Shown: positions 18,001 to 21,000 of the stretch, piece after piece
How positions within the stretch are numbered: the first letter of the stretch is position 1
Layout of the letters: every line of letters starts with the position of its first letter
NCBI RefSeq assembly: GCF_054482595.1
Contig: NZ_CM137008.1
Direction: 5' to 3' (one strand)
Length of the DNA: 64,000 bases
Position numbers: made by a program

Positions 18001-21000
18001 CGCTACGTACGCCAAATTTACGCGCGGGATAATTGGCGGTGCTGATCACCCCTCGACGTTCGCGGCTGCCGCCAATAGCAATAGGGATATCGCGCAGGGC
18101 GGGATTGTCGCGCATCTCCACCGCTGCGAAAAAGCAGTCCATATCCACATGAATGATTTTACGCATTGCTCACCTCTCAACACTGGTAAAGTATACAGTG
18201 ATTTCAGGGTTTGAGAAATGCGTAAAGATTCAGCATTTAACGCGTTCGCTGCGAAAGCACCTGCTGCTTATCCAGCTTTTGCACCAGTGGCTGCACCACT
18301 TTATCCCCATGCTGACCAAAGTATTGATACAGCGTATCGGACGCACTTTTGGTCAGCACCATAATCTCAATACGCCGATTGCCCGCGCTTTGCGGATTTT
18401 TGGCATCCAGCAGCATCTGGTCCGCCATTGCGCTTACCTGCATCACTTTATCTTCCGGCATTCCGGCCTCTTCCAGCACCCGACGAGCTGAAAGCGCGCG
18501 ATCGCCCGAAAGGTTCCAGTTGTTGTAGATATTGTTTTTGTAGGCCATCGCATCGGTATGCCCGGTAATAATAATTTTGTTATCGAGCGAGTCGAACACT
18601 GGCGCTAGCTCCACCAGCAGCGTTTTAAAGAACGGCATAATCTTCGCGCTGCCGCGTTCGAACATATTGCGATTCTGGTCGTCTTTAATCAGCACGCGTA
18701 ATCCCTGGGGAACAATCTCCATCTCCAGATTCGCTTCCATATGCGCATCACGGGCAATGGTGTTGATACTGGTTGCCAACTCGCCAAGCTCGGTGGCGGA
18801 TTTCTTCTTCAGCAGCGCCGTTTTCTCATTCACATCACGCGCTTTTTTCTCCGTCTCTTCCGGCACCGCCACGGTGGCAGGTTTTGGCGGATGAGACGGG
18901 CTGATTTTATTTAACGGCGACAGCCCACCACCGTTAAAAATCGACTGCCCGTGCAGCGCGGCGATAATGCTTTCACGCTCGGATTTACTGACGCTGTTGA
19001 CAATCAACTTTATCGTCGTCACCAAAGGGGCCGAGCGTATTTCCGAGGTTTCTGCCCGCTTTACCCTGGACGCGATGCCCGGCAAACAGATGGCGATTGA
19101 CGCCGACCTTAACGCCGGGTTGATCAACCAGGCGCAGGCGCAAACCCGGCGTAAAGATGTCGCCAGCGAGGCCGATTTCTACGGCGCGATGGACGGGGCA
19201 TCAAAGTTTGTGCGCGGGGACGCCATCGCCGGGATGATGATTCTGGCGATCAACCTGATCGGCGGTGTCTGTATCGGGATCTTCAAATACAACCTGAGCG
19301 CCGATGCTGCCTTCCAGCAATATGTGCTGATGACCATCGGCGACGGGCTGGTGGCGCAGATCCCTTCCCTGCTGCTCTCCACCGCGGCGGCGATTATCGT
19401 CACCCGCGTCAGCGACAACGGCGATATCGCCCATGACGTGCGCCACCAGCTGCTGGCAAGCCCGTCGGTGCTCTACACCGCCACCGGGATTATGTTTGTG
19501 CTGGCGGTGGTGCCGGGAATGCCGCATCTGCCGTTTTTGCTGTTCAGCGCCCTGCTTGGCTTTACCGGCTGGCGGATGAGCAAACGCCCGCAGGCAGCGG
19601 AGGCGGAGGAGAAAAGTCTCGAAACGCTGACCCGCACCATCACCGAAACCAGCGAGCAACAGGTCAGTTGGGAAACGATACCGCTGATCGAGCCTATCAG
19701 TTTAAGCCTCGGCTACAAACTGGTGGCGCTGGTGGACAAAGCCCAGGGCAACCCACTCACCCAGCGGATCCGCGGCGTGCGACAGGTGATATCCGACGGC
19801 AACGGCGTGCTGCTGCCGGAGATCCGCATTCGGGAAAATTTCCGCCTCAAGCCCAGCCAGTACGCCATTTTCATCAACGGTATTAAGGCTGATGAAGCGG
19901 ATATTCCGGCGGATAAACTGATGGCCCTGCCCTCCAGCGAAACCTACGGCGAGATTGACGGCGTGCTGGGGAACGACCCGGCGTACGGGATGCCGGTGAC
20001 CTGGATCCAGCCCGCGCAGAAAGCGAAGGCGCTGAATATGGGGTATCAGGTGATCGACAGCGCCAGCGTGATTGCCACCCATGTGAATAAGATTGTGCGC
20101 AGCTATATTCCTGATTTGTTTAACTATGATGATATTACGCAGTTGCATAATCGTTTGTCGTCGATGGCACCGCGCCTGGCAGAAGACTTAAGCGCGGCGC
20201 TGAATTACAGCCAGTTGCTGAAAGTGTACCGCACACTACTGACCGAAGGCGTTTCCCTGCGCGATATCGTCACCATCGCCACCGTGCTGGTCGCCAGTAG
20301 CGCGGTGACTAAAGATCATATTCTGCTGGCGGCCGATGTACGCCTGGCGCTGCGGCGCAGCATTACCCATCCGTTCGTTCGCAAGCAGGAGCTGACGGTG
20401 TATACGCTGAATAATGAGCTGGAAAATCTGCTCACCAATGTGGTGAATCAGGCGCAACAGGGCGGCAAAGTGATGCTCGACAGCGTGCCGGTTGACCCGA
20501 ATATGCTCAACCAGTTCCAGAGCACGATGCCGCAGGTAAAAGAGCAGATGAAAGCGGCGGGGAAAGACCCGGTGCTGCTGGTGCCGCCGCAGCTTCGCCC
20601 TTTGCTGGCGCGCTATGCGAGATTGTTTGCGCCGGGGCTGCATGTGCTGTCGTATAACGAAGTGCCGGATGAGCTGGAGTTGAAGATTATGGGGGCGTTG
20701 ATGTAGGTATCCGGCATCGGTGCACAACCGCCGGATGCGGCGTGAACGCCTTATCCGGCCTACCGATCCGGCACAGGTTTGTAGGCATGATAAGACGCGC
20801 CAGCGTCGCATCAGGCATCCGCGCACAATTGCCGGATGCGGCACAAGTTTGTAGGCATGATAAGACGCGCTAGCGTCGCATCAGGCATCCGCGCACAATT
20901 ATGAAATGATACGCTCCCCGGCACTAAAATCCGTTATGTTACCCGCCCAATCAATGGGATATAACCCTCGCGCCACATCGCGATGGAACGTTGAGAATGG

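What the first reader, a model, noticed from the sequence alone, without database searches (positions are those of the whole stretch)
18900..19020. Flag-2 lateral flagellar deletion scar: lfhA and lafU fragments fused
An FlhA-like fragment lacking its membrane domain (plus strand, from about 18995) directly meets a MotB-like C-terminal fragment (minus strand, up to about 18950), with no flagellar genes between them. This matches the known remnant of the roughly 35 kb Flag-2 cluster.
Basis: partly seen in the sequence, partly recalled or inferred. Interest (0 to 1): 0.3.

Follow-up and report, generated by a model that had tools for sequence, protein, structure and literature searches.

The report
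Flag-2 flagellar cluster deletion scar
This is the already described remnant left in most E. coli when a ~35 kb second (lateral) flagellar gene cluster was deleted; it is ordinary here, but I found the same nucleotide junction in at least five genera, which the papers I could read do not examine or explain.

Summary
Aligned to a Flag-2-positive E. coli, the junction lies at window 19005|19006. Its position is ambiguous within a 3-nt microhomology, ATC (19003-19005), inside an imperfect 12-nt direct repeat.

- **lafU remnant:** 18237-19005, minus strand. It keeps 769 of 924 nt and has lost the N-terminal 51 residues, including the only membrane helix.
- **lfhA remnant:** 19006-20706, plus strand. 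It keeps 1701 of 2094 nt and has lost residues 1-131.
- **Deleted DNA:** 35.0-38.1 kb, depending on the reference strain.

A 120-nt probe across the junction matches contiguously in 4085 of 5426 complete E. coli genomes, K-12 included. This is the published fhiA-mbhA scar (Ren 2005; De Maayer 2020), so it is already known.

Three further results came out of the work:
- The identical junction occurs in E. albertii, Citrobacter, Kluyvera, Atlantibacter and a Dryocola-like strain.
- Scar flanks carry no scar-specific variants and equal the flanks of local intact alleles.
- The remnants show dN/dS of 0.02-0.09.

I favour one old deletion allele whose flanks keep recombining with intact alleles. 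Recurrent precise excision is not excluded.

The parts
18237..19005 (-). lafU' (mbhA): 3' 769 nt of the 924-nt lateral-flagellar MotB-like stator gene. It lacks 155 nt, which encode residues 1-51 and part of codon 52, including the single TM helix (residues 35-53) and its Asp. The stop codon is at 18237-18239, 70 nt upstream of dinB.
   Evidence: Collinear with L001 8281-9049 at 98.3% identity with no gaps. Pfam OmpA hit only, with no PF13677. Hydropathy profile.
19003..19005 (.). Crossover microhomology ATC, present at both deletion end-points of the intact locus. The junction can be placed anywhere within it; by convention I place it at 19005|19006.
   Evidence: Three-way alignment of the window with the lafU end and the lfhA end of L001.
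18994..19005 (.). Surviving copy of an imperfect 12-nt direct repeat: CTGtTGAcaATC at the lafU end and CTGaTGAtcATC at the lfhA end, 9 of 12 identical. These are presumably the 'direct repeats' cited in the literature.
   Evidence: The two blastn alignments overlap at 18994-19005; bases shown; literature statement.
19006..20706 (+). lfhA' (fhiA): 3' 1701 nt of the 2094-nt lateral-flagellar FlhA gene. Codons 1-131 are missing. The second half of the TM domain and the whole cytoplasmic domain are retained, and the reading frame is intact.
   Evidence: Collinear with L001 44632-46331 at 95.6% identity with no gaps. FHIPEP profile positions 99-656 of 657. Hydropathy profile.
18237..19022 (-). Fused ORF that RefSeq annotates as an intact 261-aa 'LafU' (MTTIKL|IVNSVSK...). 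Its GTG start and first 5-6 codons are antisense lfhA sequence. This is an annotation artefact of the scar, not evidence of a gene.
   Evidence: RefSeq features of GF66.1 and K-12 mapped to the window; protein P0001.
18967..20706 (+). 579-aa ORF in the lfhA frame. Its ATG and first 13 codons are antisense lafU sequence. A weak sigma-70-like match (TCGACT-16-GATAAT, 9 of 12) lies at 18941-18968.
   Evidence: ORF list; consensus scan, which was not enriched over shuffles.
17111..18166 (-). dinB, the conserved left neighbour of the scar and of intact Flag-2.
   Evidence: Annotation of L001-L003 and L012-L014.
20899..21396 (-). rayT (yafM), preceded by REP repeats at 20709-20895: the right neighbour of the scar in this strain.
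   Evidence: ORF list; annotation.

Best explanation
The locus is the lfhA'-lafU' (fhiA-mbhA) scar of the Flag-2 lateral flagellar cluster.

Shown:
- A deletion of 35-38 kb joins the 3' 769 nt of lafU, head to head, to the 3' 1701 nt of lfhA at 19005|19006.
- The crossover lies in a 3-nt microhomology (ATC) within a 9/12 imperfect direct repeat.
- Both genes lose their 5' ends and native start codons. LafU loses its TM helix, and LfhA loses residues 1-131.

Inferred:
- The event was a RecA-independent illegitimate (microhomology) recombination that happened once, long ago.
- The resulting deletion allele has since been inherited and moved between lineages by homologous recombination.
- Conversion tracts coming from Flag-2-intact donors stop at the heterology boundary, that is, at the junction. 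The retained flanks therefore stay interchangeable with those of intact alleles.
- This exchange, not any function of the remnants, keeps their reading frames open and dN/dS low. Intact alleles act as the source and scars as the sink.
- The remnants themselves are promoterless pseudogenes.
For: - **Identity and junction:**
- **Same junction elsewhere in E. coli:** K-12 and 10 other diverse scar loci with no indels; contiguous in 4085 of 5426 genomes.
- **Literature:**
- **No excision machinery:** no recombinase domain in the non-flagellar ORFs of the deleted segment. Synonymous sites vary right up to the junction across genera, so no conserved cis site beyond the coding constraint. rayT is absent next to the scar in Kluyvera and Atlantibacter.
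- **Other deletions are rare and heterogeneous:** FliK-like::LafU fusions P0013/P0015 and fusion P0009.
- **Decay of remnants occurs:** lfhA' is frameshifted in the E. albertii type strain; a LafU' frameshift (P0116) and internal deletions (P0010, P0016) occur in E. coli.
- **Flank sharing between scar and intact alleles:** four E. coli allele families occur in both states with 0-3 differences in the lfhA' flank (three of them 0-4 over all flank compared), although the families differ from each other by 5-6%.
- **Left and right flanks are decoupled in scars:** all four combinations of two left and two right haplotypes are present.
- **Where remnants are found:** De Maayer reports them mainly in taxa that also hold intact loci.
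Against: - The identical junction in at least five genera with saturated synonymous divergence (dS above 1) forces one of two assumptions. Either the presence/absence polymorphism is older than the genera, or the scar crossed genera by recombination at about 80% identity. Neither is shown.
- No scar-specific flanking variant exists that would prove a single origin. A 77-nt invariant zone (18937-19013) surrounds the junction in both states.
- dN/dS of 0.015-0.09 between scar alleles would also fit selection on the remnants.
- Lack of expression was not tested.
- A Keio mbhA deletion scored as ciprofloxacin-sensitive in a persister screen, though this may be a polar effect on dinB.
Confidence: 0.85

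Rival explanations
1. Recurrent precise excision. The same junction is produced again and again, independently in each lineage and genus. The cause would be a site-preferring reaction acting on the conserved coding motifs at the two ends (lafU ...L-W|I-V-N-S; lfhA ...M-I-I|N-F-I-V), for example a chromosomally encoded recombinase or a structure-directed template switch. On this view scars are young dead ends that are constantly re-derived from intact alleles.
For: - The junction is nucleotide-identical in E. coli, E. albertii, C. amalonaticus, K. ascorbata, strain H11S18 and two Atlantibacter lineages, with flanks diverged at third codon positions right up to it.
- The N-terminus M(T)TIKL|IVNS of truncated LafU proteins also occurs in C. 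gillenii, Citrobacter sp. R-1.5.2, Kluyvera sp. and Atlantibacter sp. RC6.
- Scar alleles group by taxon with intact alleles, not with each other.
- Four of four E. coli allele families have scar/intact twins, and K. ascorbata scar and intact strains differ by only 1.4%.
- The two ends are also similar as an inverted pair on the gene strands (17 of 24 nt, by my reading).
Against: - The exact direct homology is only 2-3 nt, across 35 kb.
- No recombinase was found in the element.
- No conserved non-coding-type signal was seen at synonymous sites.
- Spontaneous alternative deletions have other junctions.
- Twin pairs are equally expected if close relatives exchange the allele by homologous recombination.
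- In ST131 the published phylogeny reads the change as a gain of Flag-2, from scar to intact.
Confidence: 0.2
2. The remnants are functional genes in their own right and are kept by selection. Candidates are a periplasmic or cytoplasmic OmpA-like LafU' and an N-terminally truncated LfhA'. Alternatively the DNA is needed in cis for dinB or yafL.
For: - Both frames are open in all 11 E. coli scars sampled and in Citrobacter, Kluyvera, H11S18 and Atlantibacter.
- dN/dS is 0.015-0.09, including 0.025 and 0.08 between two Atlantibacter scar lineages with dS above 1.
- Start codons exist for both fused ORFs.
- There is a weak promoter-like site at 18941-18968.
- The Keio mbhA mutant showed a phenotype.
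Against: - LafU' has no signal peptide or TM helix to reach the peptidoglycan, and LfhA' starts in the middle of a TM helix.
- The start codons differ between genera and arise from synonymous choices in the antisense gene.
- Frameshifts and internal deletions occur in E. albertii and in some E. coli.
- Intact alleles exist in every genus that has the scar, Atlantibacter included, so they can supply the purifying selection.
- Remnants are reported mainly where intact loci also occur.
- The promoter match is not above shuffled expectation.
Confidence: 0.08
3. Chance ORFs or an assembly artefact: the two fragments are not really adjacent in the organism.
For: None.
Against: The same contiguous sequence is found in 4085 complete genomes, and the window is 100% identical to the closed genome of strain GF66.1.
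Confidence: 0.01

Closest known systems
fhiA-mbhA (lfhA'-lafU') remnant of E. coli K-12 MG1655, described by Ren et al. 2005 (J Bacteriol 187:1430)
   Same: Same site (dinB | scar | rayT-yafL), same orientation, same nucleotide junction and same fragment lengths of 769 + 1701 nt.
   Different: Different allele. The window is 96.4% identical to K-12 over the scar: 76 differences in lfhA' and 13 in lafU'. The window strain also lacks yafNO next to dinB.
Intact Flag-2 locus (E. coli 042, W, ST131 clades B2-C, O111/O26; here L001, L012-L014, L104)
   Same: The two retained fragments are collinear with the outermost genes lafU and lfhA. The window's lfhA' is 100% identical to the corresponding part of an intact lfhA in strain AHM21C2872I.
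   Different: 35.0-38.1 kb holding about 40 flagellar genes (lafT...lfhB) are absent.
lfhA-lafU en bloc deletions reported across Enterobacterales (De Maayer et al. 2020, PMC6993521)
   Same: Same kind of remnant. That paper counts 531 of 4028 strains, mainly in Escherichia and Citrobacter clade A.
   Different: The paper's main text does not use the words junction or breakpoint and does not compare the deletion end-points between taxa. Here the junction is shown to be identical at nucleotide level in five genera.
Primary-flagellum FlhA and MotB (Flag-1)
   Same: Same protein families: FHIPEP, and the OmpA-like peptidoglycan-binding domain.
   Different: The Flag-1 genes are full-length functional paralogues elsewhere on the chromosome. 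The fragments here lack the N-terminal parts needed for membrane insertion and, in MotB, for the proton-conducting helix.
Excisable genomic islands and developmentally excised elements (integrase plus att repeats)
   Same: A large segment is removed with a reproducible junction.
   Different: No integrase or recombinase was found, and there are no att-length identical repeats: only ATC is exact, within a 9/12 repeat.

Membership tests
Flag-2 lfhA'-lafU' deletion scar | A 3' fragment of a lateral-flagellar FlhA (FHIPEP) gene lacking its 5' end | tested here: met
   FHIPEP profile positions 99-656 of 657. Collinear with codons 132-697 of intact lfhA.
Flag-2 lfhA'-lafU' deletion scar | A 3' fragment of lafU (MotB-like) lacking the TM/plug region | tested here: met
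   OmpA domain only. Collinear with L001 8281-9049. PF13677 is present only in full-length relatives.
Flag-2 lfhA'-lafU' deletion scar | The two fragments abut head to head with no flagellar genes between them | tested here: met
   0 bases lie between the junction-equivalent points, against 35,012-38,138 bp in intact loci.
Flag-2 lfhA'-lafU' deletion scar | Chromosomal site between dinB and rayT/yafL | tested here: met
   ORFs and RefSeq annotation of identical or related records.
Flag-2 lfhA'-lafU' deletion scar | Junction identical to the K-12 fhiA-mbhA junction | tested here: met
   Gap-free alignment with K-12 (L002) across the junction. The 120-nt probe is contiguous in 4085 genomes.
Flag-2 lfhA'-lafU' deletion scar | Remnants are promoterless and not expressed | not testable with these tools
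   Only a weak consensus match at 18941-18968, not enriched over shuffles. No expression data are available here.
Functional FlhA export-gate protein | Complete N-terminal transmembrane domain | tested here: not met
   Residues 1-131 are absent, and the break lies inside hydrophobic segment 118-136.
Functional MotB-type stator subunit | N-terminal TM helix with the conserved Asp, plus the plug | tested here: not met
   Residues 1-51 (…AFADFTLAMMALFMTLW) are deleted, and there is no PF13677 hit.
Site-specifically excised island | Element-encoded recombinase | tested here: not met
   Pfam scan of 8 non-flagellar or unnamed ORFs of L001 found no recombinase. Two ORFs had no hit at all.
Site-specifically excised island | Identical att-type direct repeats at both ends | tested here: not met
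   Only ATC is exact, within a 9/12 repeat. Third-codon positions vary next to the junction across genera.

The most novel reading that the evidence does not exclude
The Flag-2 scar may not be a one-off accident of E. coli history. Exactly the same nucleotide junction is present in Escherichia (two species), Citrobacter, Kluyvera, Atlantibacter and a Dryocola-like lineage. In each it is embedded in flanks that are species-typical and indistinguishable from those of local intact alleles. The most novel reading my evidence does not exclude is a recurrent, precise excision of the whole 35 kb flagellar cluster, a reproducible 'off switch by deletion' directed by the conserved coding motifs at its two ends. 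The milder alternative is a presence/absence polymorphism older than the genera and held by balancing selection. That would also be unusual.
Probability: 0.2. Interest if true: 0.75.

Novelty: already known. Interest (0 to 1): 0.3.

Why it matters
As it stands, the finding re-identifies a textbook pseudogene pair. Its practical value is small: it marks the strain as Flag-2-negative, and it exposes an annotation inconsistency, since RefSeq calls lafU an intact 261-aa CDS whose first codons are antisense lfhA.

The wider pattern could matter. One nucleotide-identical junction spans five genera, no scar-linked variants exist, and the 'pseudogenes' show strong apparent purifying selection. Together these make the locus a clean natural system for two questions:
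- How does a large presence/absence polymorphism persist and move between lineages?
- How far does homologous exchange run into a heterology boundary?

It would also settle whether loss of a costly, immunogenic surface organelle can be a repeatable event rather than a random one.

Tried and rejected
1. **Ren et al. 2005 (PMC545627) is not held.** The published description of the 'direct repeats' is known only second-hand. My memory of its abstract ('two adjacent, divergent, promoterless flagellar genes') is my own knowledge, not a tool result.
2. **The genome-contig scan with the LfhA' protein was swamped by generic FlhA genes.** The pattern DAMPGKQM is universal. Only L015, L016 and L018 were useful. 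The other genera were reached through the fused LafU ORF.
3. **Cassette hypothesis** (a uniform Flag-2 interior with sharp boundaries at the junction points) was rejected. Divergence among intact loci is continuous across both points.
4. **RayT/REP involvement** was rejected. There is no rayT beside the scar in Kluyvera or Atlantibacter.
5. **A plasmid vehicle for the scar** was rejected. The plasmid hits are F-prime plasmids of lab K-12 or mis-assigned chromosomal pieces.
6. **An element-encoded recombinase** was not found.
7. **Atlantibacter as a scar-only genus to test selection on the remnants** was undermined, because intact Atlantibacter alleles exist (P0122, P0124, P0126).
8. **Many 280-aa Kluyvera LafU' entries** turned out to be single-residue variants of one allele, not a deep radiation.
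9. **Low dN/dS as proof that scars are young** was considered and dropped. A source-sink model, with gene flow from intact alleles, gives the same signal.

Full report
**What is in the window**

The region around the finding reads, left to right: pepD, prfH' and rtcB' fragments, yafP, dinB (17111-18166, minus strand), a MotB-like ORF on the minus strand, an FlhA-like ORF on the plus strand, REP repeats, rayT, yafL, dinJ-yafQ. Pfam gives FHIPEP (E 3e-189, profile positions 99-656 of 657) for the plus-strand ORF. For the minus-strand ORF it gives only the OmpA-like domain. The window is E. coli. It is 100% identical over the scar to strain GF66.1 and 96.4% identical to K-12 MG1655.

**Placing the breakpoint**

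Strain MEI4BO-21 (L001) carries a complete Flag-2 cluster between dinB and rayT, running from lafU through lafT, lafS and the lfg/lfi genes to lfhB and lfhA.
- Window 17111-19005 aligns to L001 7155-9049.
- Window 18994-20843 aligns to L001 44620-46469.
- The base-by-base comparison puts the switch from lafU-derived to lfhA-derived DNA at 19005|19006.
- ATC (19003-19005) is shared by both parents. It sits inside an imperfect 12-nt direct repeat, CTGtTGAcaATC versus CTGaTGAtcATC.

The missing DNA is 35,582 bp relative to L001, 38,138 bp relative to two other intact strains (AR_0089 and the O25:H4 strain 18044) and 35,012 bp relative to strain 2009C_3689.
- lafU keeps 769 of 924 nt and loses residues 1-51, including its only TM helix.
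- lfhA keeps 1701 of 2094 nt and loses residues 1-131. The break is inside hydrophobic segment 118-136, and three later hydrophobic segments plus the cytoplasmic domain remain.

The observation and the interpretation otherwise hold.

**How common it is, and what is known**

- A 120-nt probe centred on the junction is contiguous in 4085 of 5426 complete E. coli genomes.
- About 1170 records instead hold the two halves at separate places, which marks them as Flag-2-positive.
- Eleven scar loci chosen across the identity range all have the same junction, no indels and both frames open.
- The literature describes this remnant. De Maayer et al. 2020, citing Ren et al. 2005, attribute it to recombination between direct repeats and find truncated copies in all 76 Flag-2-negative strains among 100 E. 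coli.
- The E. coli W genome paper calls fhiA and mbhA the terminal remnants in K-12 and B.
- An ST131 paper reports fragments of about 1700 bp and 769 bp.
- An E. albertii paper reports a 2.5 kb truncated locus.

The finding is therefore already known.

**Annotation**

RefSeq flags lfhA' as a pseudogene (window 18988-20706). It annotates lafU as an intact 261-aa CDS (18237-19022) whose GTG start and first codons, MTTIKL, are antisense lfhA. Symmetrically, the 579-aa lfhA-frame ORF starts at an ATG in antisense lafU. A weak sigma-70-like match precedes it but is not above the shuffled expectation.

**Unexpected result 1: no scar haplotype**

The retained flanks are very polymorphic in E. coli: 294 variable sites in 2470 nt, with lfhA' alleles differing by 5-6%. 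Yet scar alleles are identical to intact alleles of the same family.
- K-12 equals MEI4BO-21: 0 differences in 2470 nt, and 99.93% identity over a further 10 kb of flank.
- EC190759 equals the two intact strains AR_0089 and O25:H4 18044: 0 differences in 2470 nt.
- EC21Z-048 versus 2009C_3689: 3 differences in lfhA', although their lafU' flanks differ by 21.
- The window's own lfhA' is 100% identical to an intact lfhA in strain AHM21C2872I.

A 77-nt zone (18937-19013) is invariant in all 15 sequences. Left and right flank haplotypes occur in all four combinations among scars.

**Unexpected result 2: the same junction in other genera**

Searching with the fused 261-aa ORF found truncated LafU proteins beginning M(T)TIKL|IVNSVS in Citrobacter gillenii, C. 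amalonaticus, Citrobacter sp., Kluyvera ascorbata, Kluyvera sp., strain H11S18 and Atlantibacter. The DNA of six such loci aligns without a gap across the junction, while differing from E. coli at third-codon positions on both sides right up to it. The E. albertii type strain has it too.

Scar and intact LafU alleles cluster by taxon, not by state. K. ascorbata scar and intact strains differ by 1.4%, spread uniformly from the junction outward. De Maayer et al. counted such deletions across taxa, but the main text contains no mention of junctions or breakpoints.

**Unexpected result 3: the 'pseudogenes' look constrained**

- Nei-Gojobori dN/dS between scar alleles is 0.015-0.07 within E. coli (dS 0.18-0.30 for lfhA').
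- It is 0.025 and 0.08 between two Atlantibacter scar lineages with dS above 1.
- Among intact alleles, the retained part of lfhA has 2-2.5 times the dS of the deleted codons 1-131. It also exceeds dinB and pepD. The rise is gradual, not a step.

**Interpretation**

Three readings fit.

*(a) One old deletion allele, identical by descent.* It spreads by homologous recombination. Its flanks are continually overwritten from intact alleles, because conversion tracts from an intact donor must end at the heterology boundary. Purifying selection acts in the intact background and is transmitted to the scars by gene flow. I favour this reading for these reasons:
- Nothing in the sequence could direct a repeatable 35 kb excision. 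Exact homology is 2-3 nt, no recombinase was found, there is no conserved signal at synonymous sites, and rayT is not conserved next to the scar.
- Other Flag-2 deletions have other junctions.
- Remnants do decay in some lineages, such as the frameshifted lfhA' of E. albertii and the frameshifted or internally deleted LafU' of some E. coli.
- Intact alleles exist in every genus that has the scar.

*(b) Recurrent precise excision.* This explains the taxonomic interspersion most simply but lacks a mechanism.

*(c) Selection on the remnants themselves.* This is weakly supported by the open frames and by a Keio mbhA phenotype in a ciprofloxacin persister screen, which may be polar on dinB. It is contradicted by the decay cases and by the loss of the membrane-targeting parts.

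Sequence data alone did not separate (a) from (b). Clean scar/intact twins are expected under both once close relatives exchange the allele.

**Verdict**

The feature is already known, so its interest is low as given. The cross-genus identity of the junction is a genuine loose end worth a targeted experiment.

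Noticed in passing
window 17111-17114 (dinB/yafP overlap); compare L002 4166-4860: The yafN-yafO toxin-antitoxin pair that lies between dinB and yafP in K-12 and MEI4BO-21 is absent here. dinB runs directly into yafP, as it does in GF66.1, AR_0089, the O25:H4 strain 18044 and 2009C_3689.
   Followed up: partly
window 15621-16356: A second two-ended remnant: a prfH 3' fragment (185-aa ORF) abuts an rtcB (ykfJ) 5' fragment (88-aa ORF). Both genes are full length (prfH 204 aa, RtcB 379 aa) in L012-L014, so this is another internal deletion scar 3 kb from the Flag-2 one.
   Followed up: no
window 18237-19022: RefSeq annotates lafU as an intact 261-aa CDS although it lacks the TM helix and its first 5-6 codons are antisense lfhA. 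The partner lfhA' is flagged as a pseudogene. The annotation is inconsistent across thousands of genomes.
   Followed up: yes
window 19006-20706 and L001/L012/L014 lfhA: Synonymous divergence of the retained lfhA part among E. coli alleles (dS 0.18-0.30, in scar and intact alike) is 2-2.5 times that of codons 1-131 of the same gene in intact alleles. It also exceeds dinB and pepD (0.07-0.16). This is unexplained; it might reflect the larger population of the retained segment, or introgression.
   Followed up: partly
window 20709-20895 and about 21400-21560; L008-L010, L014: REP/BIME repeats flank rayT. In several strains rayT is replaced at the same place by a hicAB toxin-antitoxin pair.
   Followed up: no
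L018 (E. albertii NBRC 107761) 2501-4176: The lfhA' remnant of the E. albertii type strain is frameshifted (tblastn splits at residues 315/317). Its LafU' (P0008) has a 3-aa deletion and a changed C-terminus. This is visible decay of the remnants.
   Followed up: partly
proteins P0013, P0015, P0009 (E. coli): These are fusions of a FliK-like (hook-length) N-terminus, or of another flagellar protein, to the LafU C-terminus. They indicate other, rarer internal Flag-2 deletions with different junctions.
   Followed up: no
L097/L098 and L101/L102 (Atlantibacter): In Atlantibacter the scar is not next to dinB. The lafU' side borders DHDPS/cob genes in one lineage and adh_short/IclR genes in the other, while the lfhA' side always borders a yafL-like NlpC/P60 gene.
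   Followed up: no
PMC13131330 (literature): The Keio mbhA (lafU') deletion is listed among ciprofloxacin-sensitive persister mutants. Because lafU' ends 70 nt upstream of the SOS gene dinB, a polar effect is a plausible cause.
   Followed up: no
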